The notes under the pieces were generated by a model. It saw only the letters and a program-made list of their open reading frames with translations. It was not told the origin of the DNA and searched no databases. The translations under genes were made by a program, and so were the position numbers. A DNA stretch of 13,848 bases, from IMG/VR virus record IMGVR_UViG_3300045988_113164. One strand, given 5' to 3'. Shown here piece by piece: positions 1 to 13,848 of the stretch. Within the stretch, counting starts at the first letter, position 1, and the number at the start of each line of letters is the position of its first letter. The stretch comes from a virus.

Positions 1-134
1 GTGGTAGTACTTTAGCACATCACAGTGGTAACGCGTTAACGTGGTAAAGTGTTAAAGTTCCCACATGCGCTCGTCTATGCACTGGAATTATTAACAGCAC
101 AAGTTTTAGTTAATATAAAATAGTTGTTGACAAA
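1..134. repeat. Left inverted terminal repeat (ITR-L), 134 bp
   Basis: I reverse-complemented 13715-13848 block by block. It is identical to 1-134, and the first mismatch is at position 135 (t versus a). GTGGTA occurs at 1-6, 25-30 and 41-46. The palindrome TAACGCGTTA is at 29-38. Confidence 0.97.
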
Positions 135-155
135 TTATAAAAATTGAGTTATAAT
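127..155 (+). promoter_or_regulatory. Left-end early promoter: TTGACA, 17-nt spacer, TATAAT
   Basis: -35 TTGACA at 127-132, inside the ITR. The spacer is 17 nt. -10 TATAAT at 150-155, outside the ITR. Both hexamers are perfect sigma-A/sigma-70 consensus. The first RBS and ATG lie about 45 nt downstream. Confidence 0.8.
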
Positions 156-199
156 ATTGACGGAACATGATAATAAGTTAATAAGAAAGGTTGGTTGTT

Positions 200-607
200 A
201 TGAAGGTCAAAGATTTATATTTATGTTGTGATAATATTGAGGTGGATGACATAGTGGAAATTATATTCAAAGATGATGACACATTGATGTATGTATGTTT
301 GGGAGCGGCTACATATGATATACTTGATGAAACTGTTGATTCTTTCAATGTTACTGACGAGGACGTCACTATAAAATTAAGTAGTAGCCCACGAAATGTG
401 GAAAGGAAGGAGGGCATGTTATTTAAAGATTTATATTCTGCATGTTCAAATTTAAAAAGCGCTATGAGCGTGGAAGTCACGAAAGGAACATATGAAGAGA
501 GGTTAACAGTAGACGAATGTTTGGAAAAATATGGCGCAGACGAAGTTGCACGTTTTAGAATGTGCGGTGTTACGTCACAGTTTCTGAGAGTTGTTTTGAA
601 AGGATGA
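200..607 (+). CDS. Early protein made of two fused copies of the terminal small-protein family (135 aa)
   Basis: RBS AGAAAGG at 184-190 and ATG at 200. The track's TTG at 191 is less likely. The N-terminal half starts MKVKDLYLCCDN. The C-terminal half starts at an internal Met (ATG 416) as MLFKDLYSACSNLK and contains LEKYGADEV. Both halves resemble the right-end proteins, which start MTLRKLFEMCTNCN (this copy also carries LEKYGEYKV) and MTLRDVLLACGNLKNG. The linker residues ERKEG are encoded by gaaaggaaggaggg, which looks like a relic RBS. Confidence 0.7.
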   Translation: MKVKDLYLCCDNIEVDDIVEIIFKDDDTLMYVCLGAATYDILDETVDSFNVTDEDVTIKLSSSPRNVERKEGMLFKDLYSACSNLKSAMSVEVTKGTYEERLTVDECLEKYGADEVARFRMCGVTSQFLRVVLKG

Positions 608-613
608 TAATAT

Positions 614-703
614 ATGAAAGAAACGATACAGATCATGATCATTGCGCTATTAGCGGTGCTACTTATCATAGCACCGCCTACGCTATATCTATTCGGTTTC
701 TGA
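614..703 (+). CDS. Possible 29-aa single-pass membrane peptide
   Basis: Read by hand: MKETIQIMIIALLAVLLIIAPPTLYLFGF. RBS GAAAGGA lies 9 nt upstream and overlaps the stop codon of the preceding gene. The ORF is too short for the supplied track and has a hydrophobic core. Confidence 0.35.
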   Translation: MKETIQIMIIALLAVLLIIAPPTLYLFGF

Positions 704-720
704 TGTTTCACATGAAACAT
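703..720. promoter_or_regulatory. 18-bp palindrome ATGTTTCA-CA-TGAAACAT, copy 1
   Basis: Perfect 8+2+8 inverted repeat. It starts on the last base of the TGA at 701-703 and ends 19 nt before the ATG of the terminal-protein candidate, directly 5' of its RBS. Confidence 0.75.
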
Positions 721-739
721 ATAGAAAGGAGAACACAAA

Positions 740-1333
740 ATGGCGAAATTCAAACCATCAGCCAAATTGAGTTTTGGTACACTTGAGCATTATAATCCTC
801 AATATCTCATGAATAACTATACACCGTCTGAAATACGAAAAGAATATTCCAGAATCCGCGCGATTGCGGTCAAACGTTTAACCAGACTCGTGAAAGGCGG
901 ATTCGGTGAAACATCGGTATATAAATATAACGTTTTCAATACGAAAAAGTTATCAGAACTTACAGAAAAGCAGATTCCTTTAGCCCTTTCTCAATTAGCC
1001 CGTTTTCTTGATAATCCACTCTCAACCGTCACTGGTCAGAAAGCACAGAGGAAGCAGAAAATAGAAAAGTTGCAATCATACGGTTATGATGTCAACGAAA
1101 AGAACTTTCAGTCTTTCGTAGACTTTATGGAACTGCTTTCACAACAGGCAATAGACTTGCAATACGATTCGGAAGCAGTAGTGGAACTGTGGGAAGCAAC
1201 AAGAGATAAAGTATCACCAGCGACTATAGCAAAAGATTTAGATTCATGGTTGGAGAATCGTTTTTCGATTAGTAAGTTGCCGGACATTGCATCAAAAGAT
1301 GCGGATGAGATTCTGCGACTATTAAAGGAGTAA
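740..1333 (+). CDS. Terminal protein (replication primer) candidate, 197 aa
   Basis: Lies immediately upstream of the protein-primed PolB with a 3-nt gap, as phi29 gene 3 lies next to gene 2. The basic helical segment EYSRIRAIAVKRLTRLVKGGFG resembles phi29 TP EYARLVKNTKAKIARTKKKYG as I recall it. An acidic YDSEA motif with Ser144 resembles the phi29 priming-loop FDSEG. Strong RBS AAAGGAG. Confidence 0.5.
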   Translation: MAKFKPSAKLSFGTLEHYNPQYLMNNYTPSEIRKEYSRIRAIAVKRLTRLVKGGFGETSVYKYNVFNTKKLSELTEKQIPLALSQLARFLDNPLSTVTGQKAQRKQKIEKLQSYGYDVNEKNFQSFVDFMELLSQQAIDLQYDSEAVVELWEATRDKVSPATIAKDLDSWLENRFSISKLPDIASKDADEILRLLKE

Positions 1334-1336
1334 ACT

Positions 1337-3370
1337 ATGATAGCAGATGTATATGCCTTTGACTATTCGATTTTTAAAAAAGCAGGAAATGTGAAAAGAA
1401 AGAGAGGTTCACGGAATAAGAAAAACTATAAAAATCTGGTTTGTGCTTTTGACATTGAAACAACCCGAATAAAAGAAATCGAGCAAGCCGTCATGTATAT
1501 CTGGCAATTTCAAGTTGACGAAAAAGTAACTGTGATAGGGAGAACATGGAGAGACTTCGACTACTTTATGAGGGCTATCGCATCTGACTTGGAAGATACG
1601 GAATATGTCGTTGTTTATGTTCATAACCTTTCTTTTGAGTTCCAGTTTCTTTCGGGAATCTATCCTTTTTCAAAGGAAGAGGTTTTCGCTTTGGACAAAC
1701 GAAAAGTTTGCAAGTGTGAAATGTTTGAGCATTTTGAGTTCCGATGCTCCTACATTCAAACAAACATGAGTTTACAGACATTTACAGACAAAATGAACGT
1801 TAAGCATAAGAAACTTTCCGGCGATCTTGATTATAACGTGGAGCGTTATTCATATACACCGCTAAGTGACGAAGAATTTGCATATTGTATTAACGATGTG
1901 CAAGGTCTTGTAGAAGCGATTAAGACGGAAATGAAAAATGATGGCGATACATTGTATACAATCCCGCTTACCTCAACCGGATACGTTCGGCGTGATGTGA
2001 AAAACGCACTTGAAGGCAACCGTTGGATTATGGGAATCCAGCCGGATTTCGATGTCTATCAAGTAGCAAGAGAATCGTTCCGCGGCGGCAACACACATGC
2101 GAACCGATTCTATGCCGGATGGATTCTTGAGGGTGTCCATTCCGCCGATCGTTCCTCAAGTTATCCGGGTGTTCAGTGCAACAGAGCCTATCCGGTCACC
2201 CGATTTCACAAGATTTCAAAACCCGTTCCTGATGCAGGTCAGATCATTGATCTAATGAAAAGAAGAGAAAAAGCAATTTTGATGAGGGTATCATTCAAGG
2301 GAGTGTCCTTAAATGATTACTCTTGGGGGTGTCCCTATCTGGCAAAAGACAAGTGCAGAACAATTGTAAATGGAGTATTCGATAATGGGAGAATATTAAG
2401 CGCAGATTACTTGGAGACTTCCATTACGGACGTGGATTTAAGAATCATAGTCGAAGAGTATCATATTGACGAAATTGTACCGATTGAAGTTTATACCGCG
2501 CGCTATGGAAAACTCCCCGCCGCTATGATTGAAACCATTTGTCTGTATTATAAGAAGAAAACAGAGTTGAAGGACGTAGAAGGGCAGGAATATTTTTATA
2601 TGAAAAGTAAAAATAAGCTTAACTCTATCTATGGCATGACAGCGCAAGACCCTGTCAAAGAGTCAATATTGTATCAAGATGAAGAATTTACAATTGATAC
2701 GTCAAAGACGAAAAAAGAACTATTGGAAGAGTTCATGAAACGGGCGTTCATTCCTTACACCTGGGGTGTTTGGTGTACCGCATGGGCACGGTATGAACTG
2801 GAACGGGGTATGCGTATGGTGACAGATCAAGGCGGAACGTTTATTTACTGTGACACGGATTCTATCAAATATTTAGGTGATGTCGATTTCACAATCTACA
2901 ATAACGAAAAAATAAAGTTGTCTAAAGAGAACGGCGCATGGGCTACAGACCCTCAAGGTGTGGATCATTACATGGAAGTTTATGAACAGGAGAAAGACGC
3001 TGATCGTTTCATTACATGGGGAGCGAAAAAGTACGCATACGAAGCTGACGGGAAATTAAAGATCACGGTAGCAGGAGTGCCGAAAAAAGCTGGGGCGGAA
3101 GAATTAAAGAGGAAAGGTGGCTTGGATGTGTTAAAGCCCGGTTTTGTATTCAGCGATTGCGGCAAACTGGAAACTGTTTACAACGACAAACCGGAAATAA
3201 CAAAATATAAAAATAAGGACGGCAAGACGATAGAAATAACGAAAAATGTTGTGCTTAGACCAACGACATATGCAGTAGGCATAACGAAGGAATATGAAGA
3301 TATTTTACAAGATGCTCTATTGTATAATCAATCAGTAAAAATCTTAAAAGGAACAAATTTATTATCTTGA
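1337..3370 (+). CDS. Family-B DNA polymerase, protein-primed type (677 aa)
   Basis: Motifs read in the translation: ExoI FDIETT, ExoII HNLSFEFQFL, ExoIII YCINDVQGL, motif A DRSSSYPG (Dx2SxYP), motif B KNKLNSIYGM, motif C YCDTDS and KxY GAKKYAY. Each parallels the phi29 gp2 motif: HNLKFD, YIKNDIQ, DVNSLYP, KLMLNSLYG and YCDTDS. Confidence 0.95.
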   Translation: MIADVYAFDYSIFKKAGNVKRKRGSRNKKNYKNLVCAFDIETTRIKEIEQAVMYIWQFQVDEKVTVIGRTWRDFDYFMRAIASDLEDTEYVVVYVHNLSFEFQFLSGIYPFSKEEVFALDKRKVCKCEMFEHFEFRCSYIQTNMSLQTFTDKMNVKHKKLSGDLDYNVERYSYTPLSDEEFAYCINDVQGLVEAIKTEMKNDGDTLYTIPLTSTGYVRRDVKNALEGNRWIMGIQPDFDVYQVARESFRGGNTHANRFYAGWILEGVHSADRSSSYPGVQCNRAYPVTRFHKISKPVPDAGQIIDLMKRREKAILMRVSFKGVSLNDYSWGCPYLAKDKCRTIVNGVFDNGRILSADYLETSITDVDLRIIVEEYHIDEIVPIEVYTARYGKLPAAMIETICLYYKKKTELKDVEGQEYFYMKSKNKLNSIYGMTAQDPVKESILYQDEEFTIDTSKTKKELLEEFMKRAFIPYTWGVWCTAWARYELERGMRMVTDQGGTFIYCDTDSIKYLGDVDFTIYNNEKIKLSKENGAWATDPQGVDHYMEVYEQEKDADRFITWGAKKYAYEADGKLKITVAGVPKKAGAEELKRKGGLDVLKPGFVFSDCGKLETVYNDKPEITKYKNKDGKTIEITKNVVLRPTTYAVGITKEYEDILQDALLYNQSVKILKGTNLLS

Positions 3371-3436
3371 CAGGAATTAAAAAGAGAGTTATCATAGATA
3401 TGCAACAAAGAACAATACAAAGAAAGGAGCAGAAAC

Positions 3437-3688
3437 ATGAAAGGAACTATTAGCAAGACAGTGGTAACCACTCTGTTGGAAGTGACTCGCTATAACGAAG
3501 AAACGAAAACAGAGGAAACGGTTACAAGAAAGTTCATGACACTGAGAACCCCCAGCTACGAACGCATTGAAAATTATCTCATGGAAGATAAAGGATATCT
3601 CGGTTTCAAGGTGCTTTCCAGCACGGAAGAAGTCTATGCCATGGAAGCCGATGAATTTATTAAAAATGCAGTGAAAAAGGAGAGATGA
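3437..3688 (+). CDS. Hypothetical early protein (83 aa)
   Basis: RBS AAAGGAG 8 nt before the ATG, and the ORF runs in the operon direction. I recognise no motif. By position it could be a DNA-binding or regulatory protein. Confidence 0.6.
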   Translation: MKGTISKTVVTTLLEVTRYNEETKTEETVTRKFMTLRTPSYERIENYLMEDKGYLGFKVLSSTEEVYAMEADEFIKNAVKKER

Positions 3689-3690
3689 CA

Positions 3691-4038
3691 ATGAAAATCA
3701 TTCGAAGCAAAAGTGAAAAGATTACAGTAAAAGAGAAATATCTCATGTCAATGAATCCCGAGATTCGTAGAATGAGAGATGCTGAGGGGATGAATGTTCC
3801 GGTGCTTAACTGGATGATCTATTCCGAAAAGGACAAAGAGGGAAATGAACAGATCCTTCTTTCCATCCTGTCTGAGGATAATGTTGCATATGCAACAAAC
3901 AGCCGGACTTTCATCGAAGCATTTTCCGTACTCTGTGACATGTTCGCAGACAGCGGGGAAGAGATTGCCGCTATTAAGGTAATTGGTGGACAGTCAAAAA
4001 CAGGACGGCACTATATCACCTGTGCCTATGCTGAGTAA
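3691..4038 (+). CDS. Hypothetical early protein (115 aa), a positional candidate for an SSB or DNA-binding protein
   Basis: GGAG at 3679-3682 sits 8 nt before ATG 3691. ATG 3685, used by the track, is only 2 nt from the SD. The ORF is followed by an intrinsic terminator. The functional suggestion rests on position only. Confidence 0.6.
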   Translation: MKIIRSKSEKITVKEKYLMSMNPEIRRMRDAEGMNVPVLNWMIYSEKDKEGNEQILLSILSEDNVAYATNSRTFIEAFSVLCDMFADSGEEIAAIKVIGGQSKTGRHYITCAYAE

Positions 4039-4083
4039 CTATTAACAAATTATAAAACTATATCTCATTTGTGTATTTCAAGT

Positions 4084-4113
4084 AAAGCCCCGTTCCGTTA
4101 TCGGGGCTTTTTT
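4084..4113 (+). terminator. Rho-independent terminator ending the early replication operon
   Basis: Stem AAAGCCCCG (4084-4092) pairs with CGGGGCTTT (4102-4110). The loop is 9 nt. The T-run at 4108-4113 is TTTTTT. Confidence 0.8.
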
Positions 4114-4129: not shown

Positions 4130-5170
4130 ATGAAGGAAAAGAACATTTATGACCGTAATGGTTTCATCAATATACCGGCTATTTATAACATACCAGTACC
4201 GTTCATATTTATTGTAGGCGGTCGGGGAACTGGAAAAACGTATGGTGTCTGCAAATTCGCAATCGAGAGAAAGATCAAATTCGCACTGATGAGACGAACA
4301 CAAACACAGTCTGATCTGATTTCCAAACCGGAATTTTCACCACTCAAACCCGTCCTGAGCGATATGAACCGGATGTTCAAGGCCGTTTCATTGACAAAAC
4401 AGAACAGTGCGTTTTATGAAACGGATATGGAAGGAACGATTATTTCACCAGAGCCGTTCTGTTATTCACTTGCACTGTCAACCATTTCGAATATGCGTGG
4501 TTTTGATGCCAGTGATATCTCCCTCATCTTCTATGATGAGTTTATCGCAGAAGCGCACGAACGACCATTGAAAAATGAAGCAGAAGCCTTCTTTAACTGT
4601 TACGAAACAATTAACCGTAACCGTGAATTGAAAGGGATTGCACCTGTCAAAGTGATCTGTGCGGCCAACAGCAATAACATGGCAAATGAACTCTTTATAT
4701 CGTTGGGACTGGTGCTGAGAGCGGAAAAGATGTATCAGAACGGAACATCTATCTGGATAGATAAAGAACGGGGTCTAGCACTGATTATTTGTCAAGACAG
4801 CCCGGTTTCCGAAGCGAAAGAAAAAACAGCATTGTACAATTTGGTGTCAAGGGATTCTGACTTTTATCAGATGTCATTAAAGAACGTGTTCACGAAAGAC
4901 AGAGCGGATAACATCGGCAGTAGAAACATCAAGGAGTTTAAACCATTAGTCCATGTGGGCGAAATGTATATCTATCGACACAAGTCACGACAGGAGTACT
5001 ACGTCACCTCATTTAAGTCAGGAGTATTCAAAGAGAACTACACCATGAGCGAAAATGATAAAGTGCGTTTCCGCTTGAAATATCGCTACCTGTGGATTGC
5101 TTTCCTATCACGCTCCTTGTATCTTGAGAACTACATCATCCAAGTTCTTTTTACAAAATGTTTCATGTGA
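4130..5170 (+). CDS. DNA encapsidation (packaging) ATPase, phi29 gp16-like (346 aa)
   Basis: Walker A FIVGGRGTGKTY parallels gp16 FVIGARGIGKSY. FALMRRT parallels FIYVRRY. Walker B LIFYDEFI parallels IVFDEFI. NRNRELKGIAPVKVICAANS parallels RNRERVRCICLSNA. Confidence 0.9.
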   Translation: MKEKNIYDRNGFINIPAIYNIPVPFIFIVGGRGTGKTYGVCKFAIERKIKFALMRRTQTQSDLISKPEFSPLKPVLSDMNRMFKAVSLTKQNSAFYETDMEGTIISPEPFCYSLALSTISNMRGFDASDISLIFYDEFIAEAHERPLKNEAEAFFNCYETINRNRELKGIAPVKVICAANSNNMANELFISLGLVLRAEKMYQNGTSIWIDKERGLALIICQDSPVSEAKEKTALYNLVSRDSDFYQMSLKNVFTKDRADNIGSRNIKEFKPLVHVGEMYIYRHKSRQEYYVTSFKSGVFKENYTMSENDKVRFRLKYRYLWIAFLSRSLYLENYIIQVLFTKCFM

Positions 5171-5175
5171 AACAT
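5158..5175. promoter_or_regulatory. 18-bp palindrome, copy 2 (centre TG, the reverse complement of copies 1 and 3)
   Basis: ATGTTTCA-TG-TGAAACAT. It spans the ATPase stop codon (5168-5170) and ends 1 nt before the -35 hexamer of the following promoter. Confidence 0.75.
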
Positions 5176-5176
5176 C

Positions 5177-5206
5177 TTGCTAAAAAAGAGGGATGCGTGT
5201 TATAAT
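5177..5206 (+). promoter_or_regulatory. Promoter with extended -10: TTGCTA, 18-nt spacer, TGtTATAAT
   Basis: -35 TTGCTA at 5177-5182. TG at 5198-5199. -10 TATAAT at 5201-5206. It lies in the 171-bp non-coding gap between the ATPase gene and the late genes. Confidence 0.65.
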
Positions 5207-5212
5207 TATAGG

Positions 5213-5317
5213 TGAAAAGGAAGTGCTAGAAACAATCCCGGAAGGATGCACATGTTCTATGTTTCGGAACAGGAATCTTTTTCGACAGGCGGTATATATA
5301 CAACCGCCTGTTTTATT
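5213..5317 (+). ncRNA. Candidate short transcript or leader (~105 nt) running from the promoter to an intrinsic terminator
   Basis: The predicted start is about 5212-5214. Possible hairpins are ATCC/GGAT (5235-5248) and TGTTC/GAACA. The 5' GAAAAG could pair with CTTTTTC at about 5276-5283. The transcript would end at the 5285-5317 terminator. No convincing RBS or start lies inside: ATG 5246 directly abuts GGAAGG with no spacer. Confidence 0.35.
5285..5317 (+). terminator. Intrinsic terminator or attenuator upstream of the late operon
   Basis: A 9-bp stem, ACAGGCGGT (5285-5293) pairing with ACCGCCTGT (5303-5311). The loop is 9 nt and is followed by TTTATT. Confidence 0.65.
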
Positions 5318-5341
5318 AAACGGGAAGAAAGAGAGGTGTCC

Positions 5342-5539
5342 ATGGATGCAAACACTATAATGACGTTGGTGCAGAATTTAGGTTTTCCTGTCATTTGTTG
5401 CGGGGCGCTGTATTGGCGTATGCTGAAAGAGTCCGACAATCATAAGGCAGAAATGGAGAAAGTTACTGACGCATTAAACAACAACACACAGGCACTCATC
5501 CGATTGGAAGAATCATTGAAAGGAGAAAAAGAAAAATGA
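5342..5539 (+). CDS. Small membrane protein (65 aa), YvrJ-like, possible holin-type function
   Basis: RBS AGAGAGG precedes ATG 5342. Sequence MDANTIMTLVQNLGFPVICCGALYWRML has one hydrophobic helix with a GFP motif, then a charged coiled-coil tail. This is the pattern I recall for the YvrJ family. The track start at 5246 would translate through the terminator hairpin. Confidence 0.6.
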   Translation: MDANTIMTLVQNLGFPVICCGALYWRMLKESDNHKAEMEKVTDALNNNTQALIRLEESLKGEKEK

Positions 5540-8532: not shown

Positions 8533-8704
8533 GATTAAAATGTATTCATTACCGACAACCGTAGCTGTAGCCATTCTGGTGATTGGCGGGAATTATGGAA
8601 ATGGAACTGACCGTATTAAGCGGTTGAAAGCAGATGGTTTTGATCCTGTGCGGGTGCAGAAATGTGTAAATGATCTTCTTCCTATAGTCAAGAGGTATCG
8701 TTAA
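8525..8704 (+). CDS. 59-aa protein with one CW_7-like (Cpl-7-type) peptidoglycan-binding motif; not in the supplied ORF track
   Basis: Hand translation: MSEIKMYSLPTTVAVAILVIGGNYGNGTDRIKRLKADGFDPVRVQKCVNDLLPIVKRYR. GNYGNGTDRIKRLKADGFDPVRVQKCVNDLL matches the CW_7 repeat pattern as I recall it (G.WGNG.ER...L.AAGYDY.AVQ..VN.LL). RBS AAGGAGG lies 8 nt upstream. The ORF overlaps both neighbours, by ATGAGTGA upstream and TAATG downstream. Confidence 0.65.
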   Translation: MSEIKMYSLPTTVAVAILVIGGNYGNGTDRIKRLKADGFDPVRVQKCVNDLLPIVKRYR

Positions 8705-9786
8705 TGGCGGGCAATATTCAGGTGTCATATCAGTGGGCAATTGACACCTGCAACAAAAACAATGTCGGTTATTCTCAGACTTACAGAAATCAGCAGACAG
8801 TGAACGGAATCACTTATTACGATTGCAGTTCCTTCATCTGGTATGCCCTTCTTGCATCTGGTTTTGATGTAGTAGCCGCCCACGGCGGGCAATCATGGCC
8901 GTTCACTACTTATGATATGGGTAGTGTTCTGGATGCACTCGGTTTCAACCGTGTACCTGTCAACGATGTCTGGAAACCGGGAGATATTCTTATAAGGAAT
9001 AACCGCTATGGTAACCATACCGAAATGGTATACGAAGGTCGCCGAACCATGGGCGCACACAACTCACATTTACCTCTCAGCGAACAAGTGTCGATTAACA
9101 CGGGTGACAGTAACCCTGCCACTTGGGATACCTGTCACAGATTCGGAGGAGGTGCGGTAGGAGCAAAGGGAAGTAGTGCTTATGTAGTTGCGGCTATCTG
9201 TGGTAATTTCTGGCAGGAATCCGGCATCAATCCTGGCATCTGGCAGGACTTGAATCAGTCAGCCTTTACAGATTTATTAGTCGGTTTCGGTTTAGGGCAG
9301 TGGACAAATACAGAAGGAGACACCCATGGACGACTTTACAAATTACATGAATGGTTAATGAACAACGGCTACGCCGATGATGATGGGGTGGGTCAGCTAA
9401 ACTATCTGATTCACGAGAACGTCTGGTATAGCACTGGGGAAGCATCTGCCTACAAAAATCTGACTGAATTTTTAACCAGTGACAGCACAGATATTGCGGC
9501 GTTGACTCACGCATGGAACATTGGCTGGGAAGGAATCCATGACAGTTCGTGGGATGCCCGTGTGCAGTATGCGCAGAACTGCTATAACTACATCATCGCA
9601 CATGCAAATGACACATCCATCACGACCTGGGCAAAAGGTAACCGTTACCTCAGCGAAGCAGAGCGTTATAACAATGCAGTGTTAATTTATCGTTTCCTCA
9701 GCACCGGGGCTACACCCGGAACGGGAACAACGTTTCTGATCGCGGTTCTCAGTAAAAAGAAACGGAGGGATAGAAGAAATGTATAA
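8704..9786 (+). CDS. Two-domain tail-associated peptidoglycan hydrolase: N-terminal NlpC/P60-type cysteine peptidase and C-terminal phage tail lysozyme-like domain (360 aa)
   Basis: YYDCSSFIWYAL carries the catalytic Cys context. PGDILI...GNHTEMVY carries the His. The C-terminal AAICGNFWQESGINPG...GFGLGQWT is the signature I recall for the phage tail lysozyme family (GN...ESG.NP...G.G..QW). Functionally it corresponds to phi29 gp13. Confidence 0.8.
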   Translation: MAGNIQVSYQWAIDTCNKNNVGYSQTYRNQQTVNGITYYDCSSFIWYALLASGFDVVAAHGGQSWPFTTYDMGSVLDALGFNRVPVNDVWKPGDILIRNNRYGNHTEMVYEGRRTMGAHNSHLPLSEQVSINTGDSNPATWDTCHRFGGGAVGAKGSSAYVVAAICGNFWQESGINPGIWQDLNQSAFTDLLVGFGLGQWTNTEGDTHGRLYKLHEWLMNNGYADDDGVGQLNYLIHENVWYSTGEASAYKNLTEFLTSDSTDIAALTHAWNIGWEGIHDSSWDARVQYAQNCYNYIIAHANDTSITTWAKGNRYLSEAERYNNAVLIYRFLSTGATPGTGTTFLIAVLSKKKRRDRRNV

Positions 9787-10693
9787 CGGCATACCCTTTT
9801 CGGCAGATTATATCAATGCGGCTAACTCGGTGATTTCACCGAGTACCGTCCATTGCCGGAATACCAGCTTATCTCTTTATTTTCAACGATATCTGTTACA
9901 GAAAGCAATGAGTGTCTTCAAATGGGAAATGCCGCCGCTATGGGCGAAGAACTATACCCTCTATACGCTGTACTGCTGGGGCTTTTTCGCTGTAGTCAAC
10001 ACAGACAGATACGGCGTGATCCCGCAGGCCTGTGGTCTGCGGGGGTATGATGTAATGTATCAGCCGACCAACGCGATCATCACAAACCCACTCCTATCTG
10101 GGACACTAGAACCGCGGATTGGTTTGCAGTGCGAATTGGTTCGGCTACAGCCGGATTACGGCGGCATCATGGATATTGTTACCTATTATGCAGATATGTT
10201 AGCCCTGTGTGCGGAATCAGTAGGAATGAATCTTGTGAACAGTAAACTTGCTTATGTGTTCGCCGCAGAAAATAAAGCAATGGCGGAAACATTCAAAAAG
10301 CTGTATGATCAGATTGCCGCTGGAAATGTGGCGGCTGTGATTGACAAACAGTTATTCCGGGACGACGGCAAGGCGAACTGGCAGATGTTCAACCAGAACG
10401 TAGGTCAGAACTACATTGCGGATAGAGTGCTTTCGGATATGCGGAAAATCGAAGCTATGTTCTGCACGGACATAGGCATCCCGAATGCGAACACGGACAA
10501 AAAGGAACGCTTAATCACGGATGAGGTCAACGCAAATAAAGTTGAAACCCACTCCAAATGCGATTTATGGTTGGAAGAGCTGAAAGAATCCTGTGAGAAA
10601 GTCCGGGAGATGTTTGGAATCAAACTGGATGTTAATTGGAGATATAAAGGGGGCGAGGAAAATGGCAACATTGAGTCTACTGGGACTGTATAA
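9779..10693 (+). CDS. Portal / upper collar connector, phi29 gp10-like (304 aa)
   Basis: [23 protein letters not shown] parallels gp10 [41 protein letters not shown] parallels ACEKINELYGLNVKVKFRY. The size matches (309 aa in phi29). Confidence 0.9.
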   Translation: [304 protein letters not shown]

Positions 10694-11501
10694 CCATGAC
10701 GAATCCCTTCTGAATGGTTTGATTGAAAATTTACCGAACAAATTCGGAATACCGTCCAGTTACGAGGATTCCTACTACACCGATGTAACCATTGACCCTC
10801 AGACCGTAACAGAAAATCTGCTGGTCGAATGTGCTGAGTTTGAAATTTTGTATTCAGACTCCGACGCATTAAAGAGGATCATCACTATATGGTCTGCAAA
10901 AGAGAAACCCGTGTGGCAGAAAATGTTTAACACGATCTGCTATAAGTACAATCCAATCTGGAACAAAGATGGAAAAACTACGTGGACGGAACAGCAGACC
11001 ACAAGCGGAACTAAAACGGAAATGGAAAAAGGAACAAAAACAACCAGCGAGGACGGTTCAATCACTGATGATTATACCTCAACTAGCACCACGACAAATA
11101 CAACAACTGGTGCCGGCACAAATACCCGCGCTGGAAATGATGAAACAACCGGAAAGGTCAGTGCTTATGACAGCACGGATTTTCAGAACAGGGACAAGAC
11201 AAACAGTACCTCTAGTGAAAATAGCACAACGGAAAGCAACGAAGAGTTCACCGGAAAAGGAAACGTCACAAACAAAGGGAAGAAAACAACTACAAACGCA
11301 GGAGATGAAAAACATGATGTTTCACGTGAAACAAATGACAGTAATACAGGTGAAACAACTCATGAGCAACGAGAAACGGGTAACATCGGTGTTACTATGA
11401 CTCAACAGATGATCACCGCGGAACGTGAAATTGCCATGTTCAATATCATTGATTTTATCATCAATGATTTTAAAGAGCGTTTCTGTTTACGGATTTATTA
11501 A
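10662..11501 (+). CDS. Lower collar protein, phi29 gp11-like (279 aa), with a Thr/Ser/Asn-rich central region
   Basis: The start is reassigned to ATG 10662 (MATLSLLGLYNHDE), preceded by GGGGGCGAGGA. The track start at 10593 lies inside the portal gene. The position after the portal fits. YKYNPIWNKDG and the C-terminal GNIGVTMTQQMITAEREIAMFNIIDFIINDFKERFCLRIY match the lower-collar pattern as I recall it. Confidence 0.7.
   Translation: MATLSLLGLYNHDESLLNGLIENLPNKFGIPSSYEDSYYTDVTIDPQTVTENLLVECAEFEILYSDSDALKRIITIWSAKEKPVWQKMFNTICYKYNPIWNKDGKTTWTEQQTTSGTKTEMEKGTKTTSEDGSITDDYTSTSTTTNTTTGAGTNTRAGNDETTGKVSAYDSTDFQNRDKTNSTSSENSTTESNEEFTGKGNVTNKGKKTTTNAGDEKHDVSRETNDSNTGETTHEQRETGNIGVTMTQQMITAEREIAMFNIIDFIINDFKERFCLRIY
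11317..11334. promoter_or_regulatory. 18-bp palindrome, copy 4 (imperfect, intragenic)
   Basis: ATGTTTCA-CG-TGAAACAA. It matches the consensus arms at 15 of 16 positions, and the 14-nt core GTTTCACGTGAAAC is a perfect palindrome. It lies inside the lower-collar ORF. Confidence 0.5.
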
Positions 11502-11515
11502 AGGAGGATGCGAAA

Positions 11516-13021
11516 ATGGGATTATTCGATCAATTTCCCTACACAAATTTTCATGAACTGAACCTCGACTGGATTGTTGAGCAGATGCGTAGTCAGAAAG
11601 ATTACGTTGATAAAATTGATGATCATGTTGCCGAAGTTGATAAACATGTTACTGAGGTTGATAAACATGTTACCGAGGTTAATAACAATGTTTTAAATGT
11701 AGATAAACACATTGATGCAAAAGTGGCAGAAATAACACCACCTCTAGTCAAAAGCACTGTGGAACAGATGTCGGAAGATGGTAAACTGCTGGCAAATAGC
11801 GTATTTAACGTTGTTCTGCACGGGGCTGATAATACGGGTGTTACTGATGCCAGCTCCGCTATACAGTATACAATTGATAAGTACCATTTCGCTTATATCC
11901 CAAATGGACTTTATAAAGTTGATAAGACGTTAATAATTGATAGTGGATGTGTGCTGATCGGGCAAAGTTGCATTGATACTATTCTCAACGTCTCAGCAAT
12001 CAATGGTATTGTAACTAAAGATTTTTTCAGTAAAACCGCAACAGGAACGGAAGCGGGAATATATGGATTTACAATCGCCAATTTACATCTGACCGGACTT
12101 AATACAGAAAATGCTGGATATGGTATCGCTGTATACGGGTACAGGTATAGAATCACAAATTGCTTTATTGAAAAATTTCACACCGGATTATACAGCGAAT
12201 ACAACAAATCAACAGGCTTTGCCCCTAGTGGCAGTACAATGGAATCGCTCATCTCACATTGCTTAATACAGCGCAATATATCAACCGCTATGGTATTCAG
12301 AGGGCCGAGTGACTCGCGTATTGAGGATGTTGATTTTTCAAACAGCCCCTATGGTATCGTGTTTGAAACCACTGATAGCTCGTGGGCGTACGGAACAAAG
12401 GCAATTAACTGTCATGGTTATCGCATTACCGCCGTGGGATGTTATACAGTTAAAGATAATATTAGTCTGATCAATTGCATCGGAGAAAGTAGCTATAATG
12501 GTGTTGATATCGCAGGATCGGGAATCGTACTGGCTAATTGTAGTTTCTACAACAACGACACAAGCGGTATTTACTTTTCGACTGGTCGTGATATTTCAAT
12601 ATTCGATGCCACTCTGCAGGGAAACAAAGGCAGTGAAATCCATTTACAAAGTCAGCTTAGTGACAGCTATATCACTGCTAGAATCGTAGGAACACCTAGC
12701 GCAGTACTCAGCGGCGGAGGAGGCGTTGATATCAGAACTACTAGCATAAAAGTATATTCTAATGTTGATGCTAGTATCTATAATAGTCCTAAATCATTGC
12801 CAATCACTGGTGTAGGAGATGTAACCGCGAATACGGCGCACAAGGCATCTGATAACTATTGTGTGCTCGCCTATCAGACAGGCGGTGAGGGATTCAGCGT
12901 TAATGACGGCACAGGTGACAAACCGATCGGAAATGCGCCTTGCTTCTTTGTGCCTGCTGGAGGGACATGGAAATGTACAACAGAGCCGGGAAGTATGTAC
13001 TATCAGCCAATCCTGTTTTAA
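11516..13021 (+). CDS. Tail appendage / tailspike receptor-binding protein with a predicted right-handed beta-helix (depolymerase-like) domain (501 aa)
   Basis: The N-terminus FPYTNFHELNLDWIVEQM is a common tail-fibre anchor motif in phages of Gram-positive hosts. A heptad-repeat coiled coil follows (VDKHVTE x2 plus degenerate copies). HGADNTGVTDASSAIQYTID is a pectate-lyase-3-like start (GDG.TDD..AIQ). Repetitive G/N/I-rung sequence follows. The position corresponds to phi29 gp12. Confidence 0.75.
   Translation: MGLFDQFPYTNFHELNLDWIVEQMRSQKDYVDKIDDHVAEVDKHVTEVDKHVTEVNNNVLNVDKHIDAKVAEITPPLVKSTVEQMSEDGKLLANSVFNVVLHGADNTGVTDASSAIQYTIDKYHFAYIPNGLYKVDKTLIIDSGCVLIGQSCIDTILNVSAINGIVTKDFFSKTATGTEAGIYGFTIANLHLTGLNTENAGYGIAVYGYRYRITNCFIEKFHTGLYSEYNKSTGFAPSGSTMESLISHCLIQRNISTAMVFRGPSDSRIEDVDFSNSPYGIVFETTDSSWAYGTKAINCHGYRITAVGCYTVKDNISLINCIGESSYNGVDIAGSGIVLANCSFYNNDTSGIYFSTGRDISIFDATLQGNKGSEIHLQSQLSDSYITARIVGTPSAVLSGGGGVDIRTTSIKVYSNVDASIYNSPKSLPITGVGDVTANTAHKASDNYCVLAYQTGGEGFSVNDGTGDKPIGNAPCFFVPAGGTWKCTTEPGSMYYQPILF
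11636..11677 (+). repeat. 21-bp tandem repeat x2 (GTTGATAAACATGTTAC[T/C]GAG) within a longer degenerate heptad array (about 11606-11719)
   Basis: Units at 11636-11656 and 11657-11677 differ at one base. The flanking units are degenerate. They encode VDKHVTE heptads. Confidence 0.9.
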
Positions 13022-13023
13022 AT

Positions 13024-13049
13024 AAAAGAGGGCTTATAGCCCTCTTTTT
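13024..13049. terminator. Bidirectional intrinsic terminator between the convergent late and right-early operons
   Basis: AAAAGAGGGCT (13024-13034), loop TAT, AGCCCTCTTTT (13038-13048). An A-run precedes it and a T-run follows, so it can act on both strands. It sits between the stops at 13021 (+) and 13048 (-). Confidence 0.8.
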
Positions 13050-13251
13050 AAATTAAGCATATGATTTTATCACCGTTCTTATGAAAGAAGATTTTGAAAT
13101 AATCTACTTCCATTTTCATATATGCGGAATTTTTTTCAAAACAGCCACTCACTGTATCTTGATAGATACTCTTGTTATTCATATCTGTTATCATAACCAC
13201 TGAACCGTTTTTCAGATTGCCACATGCTAATAATACATCTCTTAATGTCAT
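13048..13251 (-). CDS. Terminal small-protein family member (67 aa)
   Basis: MTLRDVLLACGNLKNGSVVMI..., preceded by RBS AAAGGAGA. It is a paralog of 13265-13450 and of both halves of 200-607. Confidence 0.7.
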   Translation of the reverse strand: MTLRDVLLACGNLKNGSVVMITDMNNKSIYQDTVSGCFEKNSAYMKMEVDYFKIFFHKNGDKIICLI

Positions 13252-13264
13252 AATATTCTCCTTT

Positions 13265-13450
13265 CTATGTTCTCATCAAGATCACTTCTATGATTCTGCC
13301 ACGGATAGCAAAACAATAAACTTTGTATTCTCCGTATTTTTCTAGGCCGTCCAAGATTGGTAATACCTCGACATTGCCGTTAATCATAACCTTGAAAAAT
13401 TTCCTTTCGTTGCAATTGGTACACATTTCAAATAGCTTTCTTAATGTCAT
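13265..13450 (-). CDS. Terminal small-protein family member (61 aa)
   Basis: MTLRKLFEMCTNCNERKFFKVMI...LEKYGEYKVYCFAI...IEVIL, preceded by RBS AAAGGAG. LEKYG is shared with the C-terminal half of the left-end protein. Confidence 0.7.
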   Translation of the reverse strand: MTLRKLFEMCTNCNERKFFKVMINGNVEVLPILDGLEKYGEYKVYCFAIRGRIIEVILMRT

Positions 13451-13464
13451 GTGATTACTCCTTT

Positions 13465-13661
13465 CTATGCTTCTTCATTCTCCATTATAAATATAACTAA
13501 ACCAGCATCCTTCATATCAAACTTGTGAACCTTAAAATTTAATACTTCCTTTGGCATATAAAGATAACCACCTTCGTATATCAGCGTAGTTCCCTTATAA
13601 CACGTACTTCCGAGTTCAGTTTCCAACCAATGTACATATCCCGTAAATTTCTAATAGTCAT
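13465..13661 (-). pseudogene. Frameshifted member of the terminal small-protein family
   Basis: ATG at 13661 is preceded by AAGGAGGG. Frame 0 reads MTIRNLRDMYIGWKLNSEVRVIRELR and then stops at 13581-13583. The -1 frame continues KGTTLIYEGGYLYMPKEVLNFKVHKFDMKDAGLVIFIMENEEA to the stop at 13465-13467. Joined, they give about 65 aa that align with the paralogs. Confidence 0.6.
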
Positions 13662-13693
13662 TTCCTTGACCCTCCTTTTTATTTGTTAAATAA

Positions 13694-13722
13694 AGTATAG
13701 CATGAAATAACTATTTTGTCAA
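13694..13722 (-). promoter_or_regulatory. Right-end early promoter: TTGACA, 17-nt spacer, TGcTATACT
   Basis: On the minus strand, -35 TTGACA occupies 13717-13722, inside the ITR and mirroring 127-132. The spacer is 17 nt. An extended TG precedes the -10 TATACT at 13694-13699. The RBS and ATG at 13661 lie about 30 nt downstream. Confidence 0.75.
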
Positions 13723-13848
13723 CAACTATTTTATATTAACTAAAACTTGTGCTGTTAATAATTCCAGTGCATAGACGAGCGCATGTGGGAACTTTAACAC
13801 TTTACCACGTTAACGCGTTACCACTGTGATGTGCTAAAGTACTACCAC
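13715..13848. repeat. Right inverted terminal repeat (ITR-R), 134 bp
   Basis: Exact reverse complement of 1-134. Confidence 0.97.

What the first reader, a model, noticed from the sequence alone, without database searches (positions are those of the whole stretch)
1..13848. The window is a whole ITR-bounded protein-primed phage genome of only 13.8 kb
Perfect 134-bp inverted repeats sit exactly at both window edges. Between them is a full phi29-type gene set: TP candidate, protein-primed PolB, gp16-like ATPase, scaffold, gp8-like capsid, gp9-like knob, gp10-like portal, gp11-like collar, tailspike and lysin. At 13.8 kb it is clearly smaller than phi29 (about 19 kb). The ITRs are far longer than the 6-bp repeats of phi29. 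Nearly all genes are on one strand, which differs from the divergent early/late layout of phi29. It therefore looks like a distinct lineage of minimal protein-primed podophages.
Basis: partly seen in the sequence, partly recalled or inferred. Interest (0 to 1): 0.8.

Follow-up and report, generated by a model that had tools for sequence, protein, structure and literature searches.

The report
Small phi29-like gut phage genome
The window is a complete, or nearly complete, 13.8-kb linear genome of an uncultured phi29-type phage from the human gut; it is real, but it belongs to a large, already catalogued group of small protein-primed phages, and this same genome is already in GenBank.

Summary
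Bases 1-134 and 13715-13848 are a perfect inverted repeat (137 nt at 99%). Between them lies a phi29-type gene set.

Directly supported genes are PolB, a gp5-like SSB, the gp16 ATPase, the Phi29 capsid protein, the gp10 portal, a beta-helix appendage and a two-domain cell-wall hydrolase. The gp9 tail knob is supported by predicted fold. The lower collar has partial profile support. The terminal protein and scaffold rest on gene position only.

The ends look like real physical ends. Independent assemblies of relatives stop within 0-9 nt of window base 1. None of more than 140 related contigs, and none of the contigs listed for protein clusters of 713-785 members, exceeds about 14.6 kb. Several relatives carry sequencing adapters fused directly to their repeat ends. 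Cultured Amedibacillus phage AD70P2 also starts with 5'-GTG.

The novelty claim is overstated. Long terminal repeats and a one-strand layout with a few small inward genes at the right end are known from Cp-1. Astrithrvirus and AD70P2 share the one-strand layout, and Mycoplasma phage P1 and AD70P2 have long repeats. Smaller phi29-like genomes (10.4-12.3 kb) exist.

A 2024 review lists over 2000 phi29-like entries, including 12-15 kb gut genomes. The window's own proteins are in NCBI nr (DAU88254, DAU88256, DAU88257).

Verdict: an ordinary new member of a known kind, in an uncultured clade outside the named families.

The parts
1..134 (+). Left inverted terminal repeat and presumed replication origin. 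It contains GTGGTA three times (1-6, 25-30, 41-46), an imperfect internal palindrome (9-58, centred on AACGCGTT), and the -35 box TTGACA (127-132) at its inner edge.
   Evidence: Relatives' contigs start 0-9 nt from base 1.
127..155 (+). Left early promoter, TTGACA-17-TATAAT (12 of 12 matches). The -35 box lies inside the repeat and the -10 box outside it.
   Evidence: Both hexamers are conserved in all aligned relatives.
200..607 (+). Early ORF made of two fused tandem paralogous modules (200-415 and 416-607). The second module keeps its own ribosome-binding site and ATG. Function unknown.
   Evidence: Direct repeat D9. hhalign of module 416-607 against right-end ORF 13265-13450 gives 92%. 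No Pfam or PHROG hit.
703..720 (.). Copy 1 of the 18-bp palindrome ATGTTTCACATGAAACAT, just upstream of the ribosome-binding site of the TP-candidate gene.
740..1333 (+). Terminal-protein candidate (197 aa), ending 4 nt before the PolB gene. Predicted all-helical, with a conserved [ST][ST][VLI]xG loop (S95 T96 V97 G99).
   Evidence: AF2 pLDDT 88. No PDB match. Foldseek matches only uncharacterised ~200-aa proteins of gut podophages. Homologous to the ORF upstream of PolB in astrithr (97%) and AD70P2 (94%). Motif conservation.
1337..3370 (+). Family B DNA polymerase of the protein-primed type (677 aa).
   Evidence: Pfam DNA_pol_B_2 E 1.7e-7. PHROG 1907 E 5e-61. The only PDB sequence hit is phi29 DNA polymerase 1XHX, E 1.2e-9. 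The translation shows FDIETT, YCINDV, DRSSSYP, KLNSIYG and YCDTDS.
3367..3395 (+). Promoter-like site, TTGACA-17-TATCAT (11 of 12), ahead of the 83-aa and SSB genes.
3437..3688 (+). 83-aa protein of unknown function, in the position of a DNA-binding or regulatory early protein.
   Evidence: No hits. Conserved in close relatives.
3685..4038 (+). phi29 gp5-like single-stranded DNA-binding protein.
   Evidence: Pfam Phi29_Phage_SSB E 2e-6. hhalign against phi29 gp5 gives 94.8%.
4092..4107 (+). Terminator-like hairpin followed by a T-run, after the replication genes.
4130..5170 (+). gp16-like DNA-packaging ATPase.
   Evidence: Pfam Podovirus_Gp16 E 6e-16. PHROG 2150 E 3e-35.
5158..5206 (+). Palindrome copy 2 (5158-5175), abutting a TG-extended promoter (TTGCTA-18-TATAAT, 5177-5206). 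Proposed late promoter.
   Evidence: The same arrangement is conserved in relatives.
5246..5539 (+). Holin-like small membrane protein.
   Evidence: PHROG 4898 (holin) E 2e-6.
5536..5874 (+). Scaffold candidate (112 aa), assigned by position only. It contains six tandem 18-nt repeats (5593-5736) encoding (A/T)APVQQ.
   Evidence: Repeat family D1. No similarity to phi29 gp7 or the Cp-1 scaffold.
5877..7100 (+). phi29-type major capsid protein.
   Evidence: Pfam Phi29_MCP E 1.4e-15. NCBI nr DAU88254.1 'major capsid protein'.
7100..7117 (.). Palindrome copy 3, ending 5 nt upstream of the ribosome-binding site of the tail-knob gene.
7135..8532 (+). gp9-like tail knob (465 aa), with a Gly/Ser/Ala-rich low-confidence loop at residues 336-398.
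   Evidence: AF2 pLDDT 76. Foldseek PDB top four hits are phi29 gp9 (5FB5, 5FB4), E 8e-11 to 3.5e-10, probability 1.0, TM 0.53-0.57.
8525..8704 (+). Free-standing 59-aa protein consisting of one CW_7 cell-wall-binding repeat. Its ends overlap both neighbouring genes.
   Evidence: Pfam CW_7 E 2.4e-14. Sequence read. The same arrangement occurs in relative L069.
8704..9786 (+). Two-domain peptidoglycan hydrolase: N-terminal Amidase_5/NlpC-P60-like domain plus Phage_lysozyme2. It is the only lytic enzyme gene in the genome.
9779..10693 (+). gp10-like portal (upper collar connector).
   Evidence: Pfam Phage_connector E 5e-20. PHROG 2038 E 4e-27.
10662..11501 (+). Lower-collar (gp11-like) candidate (279 aa), with a Thr/Ser/Asn-rich middle. 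It contains palindrome copy 4 (11317-11334, one mismatch).
   Evidence: hhalign: AD70P2 gp03 99.5%, phi29 gp11 91% over 54 aa, phiCPV4 lower collar 77%. No Pfam or PDB hit.
11516..13021 (+). Beta-helix appendage or tailspike (receptor-binding protein). The most variable gene among close relatives.
   Evidence: Pfam Pect-lyase_RHGA_epim E 2e-11 and Beta_helix E 2e-10. Only one IMG/VR relative was found, at 79% identity. 42% identity in L069, whose PolB is 95% identical.
13048..13661 (-). Right-end early genes read inward: 13251-13048 (67 aa), 13450-13265 (61 aa), and a third gene split between two frames (13661-13581 and 13626-13465).
13694..13722 (-). Right early promoter, TTGACA-17-TATACT (11 of 12, TG-extended). 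The -35 box lies inside the right repeat.
13715..13848 (-). Right inverted terminal repeat and presumed second replication origin.

Best explanation
The window is the complete, or complete to within a few terminal bases, linear double-stranded DNA genome of an uncultured lytic phi29-like podophage. It comes from a human gut metagenome (run SRR413754).

Shown:
- 134-nt inverted terminal repeats.
- A protein-primed-type family B polymerase, a gp5-like SSB and a gp16-like packaging ATPase.
- A phi29-type capsid protein, portal and tail knob, a beta-helix appendage and a two-domain wall hydrolase.
- Near-consensus sigma-70 promoters facing inward at both repeat boundaries.
- Ends that coincide with the contig ends of independent assemblies.

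Inferred:
- The 197-aa protein encoded just upstream of PolB is the terminal protein. It would prime synthesis at both repeats, possibly through the conserved Ser/Thr loop (S95/T96).
- Early transcription would start at both ends. A promoter at 5177-5206, next to a conserved 18-bp palindrome, would drive the late structural and lysis genes.
- Unit-length TP-DNA would be packaged by the gp16-like ATPase, apparently without a phi29-type pRNA.
- The host is probably a Gram-positive gut bacterium. This rests on the CW_7 repeat, the wall-hydrolase domains and the nearest isolates infecting Amedibacillus and Clostridium.

It belongs to a large uncultured clade of 12-14.3 kb genomes. That clade is sister to Amedibacillus phage AD70P2 and Clostridium phage HM2, with Astrithrvirus next.
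For: Repeats.

Genes.

Promoters: conserved in relatives.

Completeness and real ends:
- Relatives' contigs begin at window-equivalent positions 0-9, and none goes further out.
- All related contigs seen are at most about 14.6 kb.
- Relatives carry their own terminal repeats of 55-419 nt.
- Illumina adapters are fused directly to the repeat ends in L023, L033 and L126 (both ends) and in L098, L108 and L083 (one end).
- Cultured AD70P2 also begins 5'-GTG and has terminal repeats.
- A second assembly of the same run gives the same molecule, with arms that differ by a 3-nt indel. The repeat is therefore not forced by the assembler.

Placement.

Mechanistic precedents: PMC5175343, PMC11476376 and PMC3362512.
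Against: - No similarity of the TP candidate to any experimentally shown terminal protein. [quoted passage not shown]
- The last few terminal bases may be missing, as is common for TP-capped DNA.
- No pRNA was found, so the packaging details may differ from phi29.
- Host evidence is weak. The only bacterial match is 43% identity over one domain to a Candidatus Fimenecus MAG.
- Promoter and terminator calls are consensus matches only. The total number of promoter-like sites is no higher than in shuffled sequence.
Confidence: 0.88

Rival explanations
1. The terminal inverted repeats are an assembly artefact, such as a fold-back chimera or a de Bruijn graph overlap. The contig would then be only a fragment.
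For: The source contig comes from a k=127 assembly, and 134 nt is close to k. Another assembly of the same run differs by a 3-nt indel and by 2 nt at one end. Some related IMG/VR contigs do carry artefacts such as retained adapters.
Against: - A pure k-1 overlap would give 126 nt, not 134-137.
- In the ENA version the arms differ by an indel, so every 127-mer is unique and the path is unambiguous.
- The same repeat sequence ends many independent contigs from other samples.
- Relatives have repeats of varied length, 55-419 nt.
- The repeat boundary coincides with a functional-looking promoter on both sides.
- Cultured AD70P2, Cp-1, P1 and phiCPV4 all have terminal inverted repeats.
Confidence: 0.03
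2. The sequence is a piece of a larger replicon: a prophage, a linear phage-plasmid, or a larger phage whose assembly broke at repeats.
For: Phage-plasmids of about 29-30 kb related to phi29-like phages exist, for example Enterococcus EF62phi and pBE32_2, listed in PMC11476376.
Against: - No related contig exceeds about 14.6 kb among more than 140 loci and the contigs listed for clusters of 713-785 proteins.
- No integrase, repressor, partition or plasmid-maintenance hit appears in Pfam or PHROGs.
- The gene set is complete for replication, packaging, virion and lysis.
- The genome-collection scan found only one distant hydrolase-domain match, and no integrated copy.
Confidence: 0.03
3. The genome is real and complete, but the 197-aa protein is not the terminal protein. 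Priming would use another protein, or a PolB-borne or host factor.
For: There is no detectable similarity to the phi29 or Cp-1 TP by sequence, profile or fold. At 197 aa it is shorter than the phi29 TP (266 aa) and the Cp-1 TP (230 aa). In Mycoplasma phage P1 the annotated possible TP is not next to the polymerase gene.
Against: - The gene sits immediately upstream of PolB, as in phi29, Cp-1 and phiCPV4.
- It is conserved across the whole clade and in astrithr and AD70P2 at the same position.
- Its all-helical prediction agrees with the helical phi29 TP (own knowledge of entry 2EX3; the fold search did not recover it).
- It has a conserved Ser/Thr loop.
- TPs are known not to be recognisable beyond close relatives (PMC11476376; PMC3362512).
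Confidence: 0.12

Closest known systems
Amedibacillus phages AD70P2 and AD70P3 (12.3 kb; filed under Guelinviridae in GenBank)
   Same: Nearest cultured relatives. Six proteins are detectable by tblastn: PolB 36%, ATPase 33%, holin-like 31%, MCP 31%, portal 31% and part of the knob at 35%. Profile homology exists for the pre-PolB protein (94%) and the lower collar (99.5%). Nearly all genes lie on one strand, there are terminal inverted repeats (55 nt perfect, 81 nt at 85%), and the 5' end is GTG.
   Different: Identities are only about 31-36%. The genome is 1.5 kb smaller and much more AT-rich (26.7% GC according to PMC11476376). No CW_7 ORF or related hydrolase was detected by tblastn.
Streptococcus phage Cp-1 (Cepunavirus, 19.3 kb)
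   Same: Long terminal repeats (236 bp). All genes lie on one strand except three small inward ORFs at the right end. Early promoters sit at or near the repeats, and the TP gene is directly upstream of PolB. The CW_7 repeat type is known from the lysin of the related pneumococcal phage Cp-7 (own knowledge).
   Different: 5.5 kb larger. Only the ATPase (28%) and portal (21%) are detectable by tblastn. PolB falls in a different branch. The 5' end is AAAG rather than GTG.
Salmonella phage astrithr (Astrithrvirus, 11.6 kb) with Acinetobacter phage Phanie and Pectobacterium phage DU_PP_III
   Same: Small genome with the same left-end order (small ORF, 197-aa ORF, PolB) and small minus-strand ORFs at the right end. 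PolB is 34% identical and MCP 24%. The pre-PolB protein is homologous at 97% hhalign probability.
   Different: Gram-negative hosts. The gene order of the structural module differs, with the terminase directly after PolB and the portal before the MCP. The lower collar is shortened (PMC11476376).
Bacillus phage phi29 (Salasmaviridae)
   Same: The same functional parts list: protein-primed PolB, gp5-type SSB, gp16 ATPase, gp8-type MCP, gp9 knob (by fold), gp10 portal, gp11 (partial), a gp12-like beta-helix and a gp13-like lysozyme domain.
   Different: 19.3 kb, 6-bp repeats, divergent early and late transcription units, a pRNA, and p4/p6 regulators. None of these is found here. PolB is only 25% identical.
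Uncultured human-gut phi29-like genomes (IMG/VR UViGs; GenBank MT839052 and MT835998; MAG TPA Caudoviricetes sp.)
   Same: Same species or genus. About 17 IMG/VR contigs have PolB 90-96% identical. MT839052 is 83% identical in DNA over 4.6 kb. The window's own MCP, PolB and portal are DAU88254.1, DAU88256.1 and DAU88257.1.
   Different: Nothing of substance; these are the same entity or close variants. The tailspike and the repeat length (134-419 nt) vary between them.

Membership tests
phi29-like protein-primed podophages (broad sense, as in PMC11476376) | Family B DNA polymerase of the protein-primed type | tested here: met
   Pfam DNA_pol_B_2 at 30.9 bits against a cut-off of 25.8. PHROG 1907 E 5e-61. 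The only PDB sequence hit is phi29 DNA polymerase, E 1.2e-9. Exo and Pol motifs are visible in the translation.
phi29-like protein-primed podophages (broad sense, as in PMC11476376) | Linear genome with inverted terminal repeats | tested here: met
   134-nt perfect repeat at both edges. The ends are corroborated by independent contigs and by adapter junctions in relatives.
phi29-like protein-primed podophages (broad sense, as in PMC11476376) | Terminal protein gene adjacent to the polymerase gene | tested here: inconclusive
   A conserved 197-aa helical protein is encoded 4 nt upstream of PolB. It has no similarity to known TPs. It is homologous to the same-position ORFs of astrithr and AD70P2.
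phi29-like protein-primed podophages (broad sense, as in PMC11476376) | Protein covalently bound to the 5' DNA ends | not testable with these tools
   Requires protease-dependent mobility shift of terminal fragments, or mass spectrometry.
phi29-like protein-primed podophages (broad sense, as in PMC11476376) | gp16-type packaging ATPase | tested here: met
   Pfam Podovirus_Gp16 at 59.2 bits against a cut-off of 25.
phi29-like protein-primed podophages (broad sense, as in PMC11476376) | phi29-type major capsid protein and gp10 connector | tested here: met
   Pfam Phi29_MCP 58 bits and Phage_connector 72.6 bits, both above their cut-offs.
phi29-like protein-primed podophages (broad sense, as in PMC11476376) | gp9-type tail knob and gp11-type lower collar | tested here: met
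   Knob: Foldseek against phi29 gp9 gives E 8e-11, probability 1.0. Collar: only partial support, hhalign 91% to phi29 gp11 over 54 residues plus gene position.
Salasmaviridae (phi29 and relatives) | Prohead RNA (pRNA) gene | tested here: not met
   No Rfam match at E up to 1. The only intergenic gap over 100 nt outside the repeat regions (608-739) is absent in relative L069, where the TP gene starts 13 nt after a 419-nt terminal repeat.
Salasmaviridae (phi29 and relatives) | Grouping with phi29 by PolB and sharing most proteins | tested here: not met
   PolB 25%, portal 24%, and only four proteins detectable by tblastn. The PolB neighbour-joining tree places the window in a different branch (simple NJ tree without bootstrap).
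Guelinviridae in the strict sense (Clostridium perfringens phages such as phiCPV4) | Grouping with phiCPV4 by PolB and sharing most proteins | tested here: not met
   PolB 23%, ATPase 27%, portal 26%, and nothing else detectable. Separate branch in the tree. phiCPV4 has divergent gene blocks and 28-bp repeats. Shared traits: the Dx2SSYP variant of polymerase motif A and the 18-bp palindrome.
Rountreeviridae (P68 and 44AHJD type) | Shared proteome with P68 | tested here: not met
   Only a 16%-coverage PolB match. Separate branch in the tree.
Astrithrvirus (genus) | Nucleotide-level similarity at genus level (ICTV uses about 70%; own knowledge) | tested here: not met
   Megablast of the whole window against 50,697 phage records found only MT839052. 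Protein identities to astrithr are 24-38%.

The most novel reading that the evidence does not exclude
Two features may be unrecognised common mechanisms of a family-level clade of small phi29-like phages.

First, the conserved 5'-GNG ends. They occur in the window, in cultured AD70P2 and at adapter-verified ends of distant relatives. They may mean that replication starts opposite the third template base and jumps back to the first. That mode is so far shown only for the tectivirus Bam35, not for a tailed phage.

Second, the invariant 18-bp palindrome (core GTTTCACGTGAAAC). It lies next to ribosome-binding sites and next to the proposed late promoter, and it is shared with a Clostridium perfringens phage of another family. 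It may be the operator, or an RNA target, of the early-to-late switch that replaces the phi29 p4/p6 system.
Probability: 0.25. Interest if true: 0.5.

Novelty: new member of a known kind. Interest (0 to 1): 0.25.

Why it matters
As a genome it adds little. It confirms that phi29-type phages of 12-14 kb with long terminal repeats are common in the human gut.

Its practical value is as a well-bounded reference for an abundant, uncultured and unnamed clade. It gives verified ends, a full gene map and a candidate terminal-protein family shared with Astrithrvirus and the Amedibacillus phages.

If the end-sequence rule (5'-GNG) and the conserved palindrome are functional, they offer simple, testable handles on how the smallest tailed phages start replication and time their gene expression.

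Compact protein-primed replicons are also of interest as orthogonal replication systems for directed evolution. A 2026 preprint, seen here only through its abstract, describes such a system (bioRxiv 10.64898/2026.09.28.754915, listed).

Tried and rejected
- pRNA. An Rfam scan at E up to 1 found nothing credible; the only hit was ar9 at 29.6 bits against a gathering score of 45. Region 608-739 folds better than shuffles (z -3.3). It is absent from relative L069, so it is not a conserved RNA gene.
- Terminal protein by homology. phmmer and a profile search against PDB sequences found nothing. Foldseek of a good model (pLDDT 88) against PDB found nothing. hhalign against the phi29 TP, the Cp-1 TP and phiCPV4 gp06 found nothing.
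- Knob and collar by sequence. phmmer and the knob profile against PDB found nothing. Only the fold search worked for the knob.
- Scaffold and the 83-aa protein. hhalign against phi29 gp7, the Cp-1 scaffold and phi29 gp4, gp5 and gp6 found nothing.
- Exact repeat-end search. The first 35 bases have no exact match in IMG/VR. Relatives were found through proteins instead.
- Adapter in L072. It looked like an end marker, but it joins an internal site and is uninformative.
- Host from bacterial genomes.
- Known operators. From memory I compared the palindrome with the cre, Rex, Cheo, CodY and TnrA consensus sites. None fits, and none was tested with a tool.
- tRNAs: none.

Full report
**1. The observation**

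The window ends in inverted repeats. Arms 1-137 and 13712-13848 are 99% complementary. Read side by side, the first 134 bases are identical, with the first difference at base 135. The next-longest inverted repeat is 33 nt at 85%, so chance is excluded.

The window is a human gut metagenome contig. The ENA record is ERZ917441, run SRR413754, contig k127_25110, 13,849 nt. That version is identical to the window except in two respects. It has a 3-nt AAT insertion in the right arm, and it stops 2 nt short at the right end. The repeat is therefore real, but 'perfect' depends on which assembly is used.

**2. Are these true genome ends?**

Four lines of evidence say yes.

- About 17 IMG/VR contigs from other samples have PolB 90-96% identical to the window's. 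Those that reach the left end start at window-equivalent positions 0, 2, 3, 4, 6 or 9, and none goes beyond. L020/L073 starts with the same GTGGTAGTAC.
- No relative is longer than about 14.6 kb. This holds for more than 140 fetched loci and for the longest contigs reported for hundreds of homologous proteins. It also holds for the contigs listed from the 90%-identity clusters of 713 (PolB) and 785 (portal) members.
- Relatives have their own terminal repeats of 55-419 nt. Examples are L068 (179 nt), L079 (178 nt), L069 (419 nt) and L054 (157 nt). L023 and L033 also score 150-179 nt, but those figures include retained adapter sequence.
- In more distant members, Illumina adapters are fused directly to the repeat end. 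This occurs at both ends of L023, L033 and L126, and at one end of L098, L108 and L083. Several adapter-free contigs of the L023 group start at that same base. That pattern is what a fixed physical DNA end produces.

The verified ends share a 5'-GNG start:

| Source | 5' end |
|---|---|
| Window | GTGGTAGTAC |
| L023 | GGGATAATC |
| L126 | GCGAAAACC |
| L098 | GTGATAGAT |
| L108 | GCGATAGAT |
| AD70P2 (cultured) | GTGCTAATTG |

Window base 1 is thus very likely the true end or within a few bases of it.

A fold-back or k-mer artefact is unlikely. A k-1 overlap would give 126 nt, not 134-137. In the ENA version the indel makes every 127-mer of each arm unique.

**3. Gene content**

Fifteen ORFs lie on the + strand, and two intact small ORFs plus one split ORF lie on the - strand at the right end.

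Supported by family models:

| Coordinates | Assignment | Support |
|---|---|---|
| 1337-3370 | PolB | DNA_pol_B_2; PHROG 1907 E 5e-61 |
| 3685-4038 | SSB | Phi29_Phage_SSB |
| 4130-5170 | Packaging ATPase | Podovirus_Gp16 |
| 5246-5539 | Holin-like | PHROG 4898 |
| 5877-7100 | Major capsid protein | Phi29_MCP |
| 8525-8704 | 59-aa CW_7 repeat protein | CW_7 |
| 8704-9786 | Wall hydrolase | Amidase_5/NlpC-like plus Phage_lysozyme2 |
| 9779-10693 | Portal | Phage_connector |
| 11516-13021 | Beta-helix appendage | Pect-lyase_RHGA_epim, Beta_helix |

The only PDB sequence hit for PolB is phi29 DNA polymerase, E 1.2e-9. The translation shows the exonuclease motifs, polymerase motif A as DRSSSYP, KLNSIYG and YCDTDS. 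DRSSSYP is the Dx2SSYP variant also noted for Clostridium phages in PMC3362512.

- Knob. The 465-aa protein (7135-8532) had no sequence-level hit. A model built on 23 homologues reached pLDDT 76. It matches the phi29 tail knob gp9 (5FB5, 5FB4) as the top four PDB hits. The scores are E 8e-11 to 3.5e-10, probability 1.0 and TM 0.53-0.57; the next hit has E 0.03. Its low-confidence Gly/Ser/Ala-rich stretch (residues 336-398) resembles the membrane-active loops described for gp9 (own knowledge).
- Lower collar. The 279-aa protein after the portal (10662-11501) matches AD70P2 gp03 at 99.5%. It matches the N-terminal part of phi29 gp11 at 91% over 54 residues, and the phiCPV4 lower collar at 77%. 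The 'lower collar' label is reasonable but only partly shown.
- Scaffold. The 112-aa protein upstream of the capsid gene is assigned by position only. It carries six 18-nt tandem repeats.

**4. The terminal-protein candidate**

The 197-aa ORF (740-1333) ends 4 nt before the PolB gene.

- It has no similarity to any solved structure by sequence, profile or fold, although the all-helical model is good (pLDDT 88).
- It has no profile similarity to the phi29 or Cp-1 terminal proteins.
- Its structural neighbours are uncharacterised proteins of about 200 aa from gut podophage genomes. One is virus sp. ctxAI8, which represents an MCP cluster in PMC11476376.
- It is homologous to the ORF in the same position in astrithr (97%) and AD70P2 (94%).
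- A loop motif [ST][ST][VLI]xG (S95 T96 V97 G99 here) is kept across the clade and in both isolates. It is a plausible priming site. This is an inference.

Failure to detect terminal proteins by homology is the norm (PMC11476376; PMC3362512).

**5. How it probably works**

- Replication (inferred). The terminal protein and PolB start at both repeats. The conserved GNG end fits initiation opposite the third template base followed by a jump back to the first. That was shown for Bam35, whose template end is 3'-ATAATA (PMC5175343). Ends that start GGG would also fit phi29/PRD1-style sliding back.
- The repeat. It contains GTGGTA three times and an internal imperfect palindrome. From about base 59 to base 134 it is nearly invariant among close relatives.
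- Transcription (inferred). The two best promoter matches in the window face inward at the repeat boundaries: TTGACA-17-TATAAT at 127-155 and TTGACA-17-TATACT at 13722-13694. In both, the -35 box lies inside the repeat, and both hexamers are conserved in relatives. Further candidates are at 3367-3395 and 5177-5206 (TG-extended), with a terminator-like hairpin at 4092-4107. This suggests early transcription from both ends and late transcription from about 5.2 kb onward. These are consensus matches only.
- Packaging. There is a gp16-like ATPase but no Rfam pRNA. There is also no conserved non-coding gap large enough for one. This agrees with the review's statement that pRNA is confined to phi29 and related Bacillus phages.
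- Lysis and entry. One holin-like gene and a single two-domain hydrolase are present. That enzyme may serve both as the tail lysin and as the endolysin. This is an inference.

**6. Placement and novelty**

By PolB, the nearest isolates are as follows:

| Phage | PolB identity |
|---|---|
| Amedibacillus AD70P2 / AD70P3 | 36% |
| Clostridium HM2 | 35% |
| Salmonella astrithr | 34% |
| phi29 | 25% |
| phiCPV4 | 23% |

A neighbour-joining PolB tree puts the window inside a diverse uncultured clade of 12-14.3 kb gut genomes. That clade is sister to AD70P2 and HM2, then astrithr. It is apart from phi29/Cp-1/phiCPV4, P68 and Mycoplasma phage P1 (no bootstrap values).

The features offered as distinctive are already known.

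- Long repeats: Cp-1 has 236 bp, P1 has 350 bp and AD70P2 has 55-81 nt.
- One-strand layout with small inward right-end genes: Cp-1, astrithr and AD70P2.
- Smaller genomes: 10.4-12.3 kb.

PMC11476376 reports over 2000 phi29-like entries, many of them 12-15 kb human-gut genomes. The window's own capsid, polymerase and portal proteins are in NCBI nr as MAG TPA Caudoviricetes sp. DAU88254.1, DAU88256.1 and DAU88257.1. GenBank MT839052 is 83% identical in DNA over 4.6 kb.

I rate it a new member of a known kind, with low interest.

**7. Things that may deserve follow-up**

- The palindrome. An 18-bp palindrome, ATGTTTCAYRTGAAACAT, occurs four times in the window against zero expected. Across 143 distinct instances in relatives, the core GTTTCACGTGAAAC is almost invariant and shows no compensatory change.
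- Where it lies. It sits 0-5 nt upstream of the ribosome-binding sites of the TP-candidate and knob genes. It abuts the -35 box of the proposed late promoter. In relatives it follows the left early promoter.
- Wider occurrence. It is kept in the sister group with about 54% PolB identity. It also occurs twice in intergenic DNA of Clostridium phage phiCPV4. Such strict conservation points to sequence-specific recognition rather than a generic hairpin.
- The small end genes. At least 416-607 (left) and 13265-13450 (right) are paralogues (hhalign 92%). In L069 the repeat is 419 nt and takes in the first gene. The repeat boundary evidently moves.
- Host. It is unresolved. The CW_7 repeat, the wall hydrolase and the nearest isolates point to Gram-positive gut bacteria. 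The only bacterial match is a weak one to a Candidatus Fimenecus MAG.

Noticed in passing
window 703-720, 5158-5175, 7100-7117, 11317-11334; also L140 (phiCPV4) 7845-7862 and 9948-9965: An 18-bp palindrome, ATGTTTCAYRTGAAACAT, occurs four times in the window against zero expected. Its core GTTTCACGTGAAAC is nearly invariant over 143 distinct instances in relatives. It lies just upstream of ribosome-binding sites or next to the proposed late promoter, and it is shared with a Clostridium perfringens phage of another family.
   Followed up: partly
L023, L033, L126 (both ends); L098, L108, L083 (one end); window 1-3: IMG/VR relatives retain Illumina adapter sequence fused directly to their terminal repeats, which marks physical DNA ends. 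All verified ends, cultured AD70P2 and the window start 5'-GNG.
   Followed up: partly
window 200-607 and 13048-13661: The small early ORFs at the two ends share an N-terminal M-x-[LV]-[KR]-[DK]-[LV]-x-x-x-C-x-N pattern. ORF 200-607 is two such modules fused in frame, and the second keeps its own ribosome-binding site. hhalign of 416-607 against 13265-13450 gives 92%.
   Followed up: partly
window 13465-13661 (- strand): The gene nearest the right promoter is split. A 26-aa ORF with a strong ribosome-binding site (13661-13581) overlaps a 53-aa ORF in another frame (13626-13465). This may be a frameshift, a pseudogene or an assembly error.
   Followed up: no
window 13763 region (right repeat arm) versus L065: The ENA assembly of the same run has an extra AAT in the right arm and ends 2 nt earlier. 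The two arms may therefore not be identical in the real molecule.
   Followed up: partly
window 8525-8704: A free-standing 59-aa ORF consists of a single CW_7 cell-wall-binding repeat. It overlaps the end of the knob gene and the start of the hydrolase gene. The same arrangement occurs in relative L069.
   Followed up: partly
window 5593-5736: Six tandem 18-nt repeats encode (A/T)APVQQ inside the scaffold-candidate gene (repeat family D1).
   Followed up: no
window 1-58: GTGGTA occurs three times (1-6, 25-30, 41-46), and an imperfect palindrome spans 9-58, centred on AACGCGTT. A TTCCCACA-like motif about 35-65 nt from the end recurs in the repeats of distant relatives.
   Followed up: no
L069 1-419 and 13300-13718: A relative with 95% PolB identity has a perfect 419-nt terminal repeat that includes the promoter and the first small gene. 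Repeat length varies from 134 to 419 nt among near-identical genomes.
   Followed up: no
window 11516-13021: The beta-helix appendage is by far the most variable gene. It is 42% identical in L069, where PolB is 95% identical, and only one IMG/VR relative was found, at 79% identity. This fits swapping of the host-recognition module.
   Followed up: no
window 600-745: The 132-nt gap before the TP-candidate gene folds better than shuffled sequence (z -3.3). It has a 9-bp GC-rich hairpin at 653-677. The gap is absent from relative L069.
   Followed up: partly
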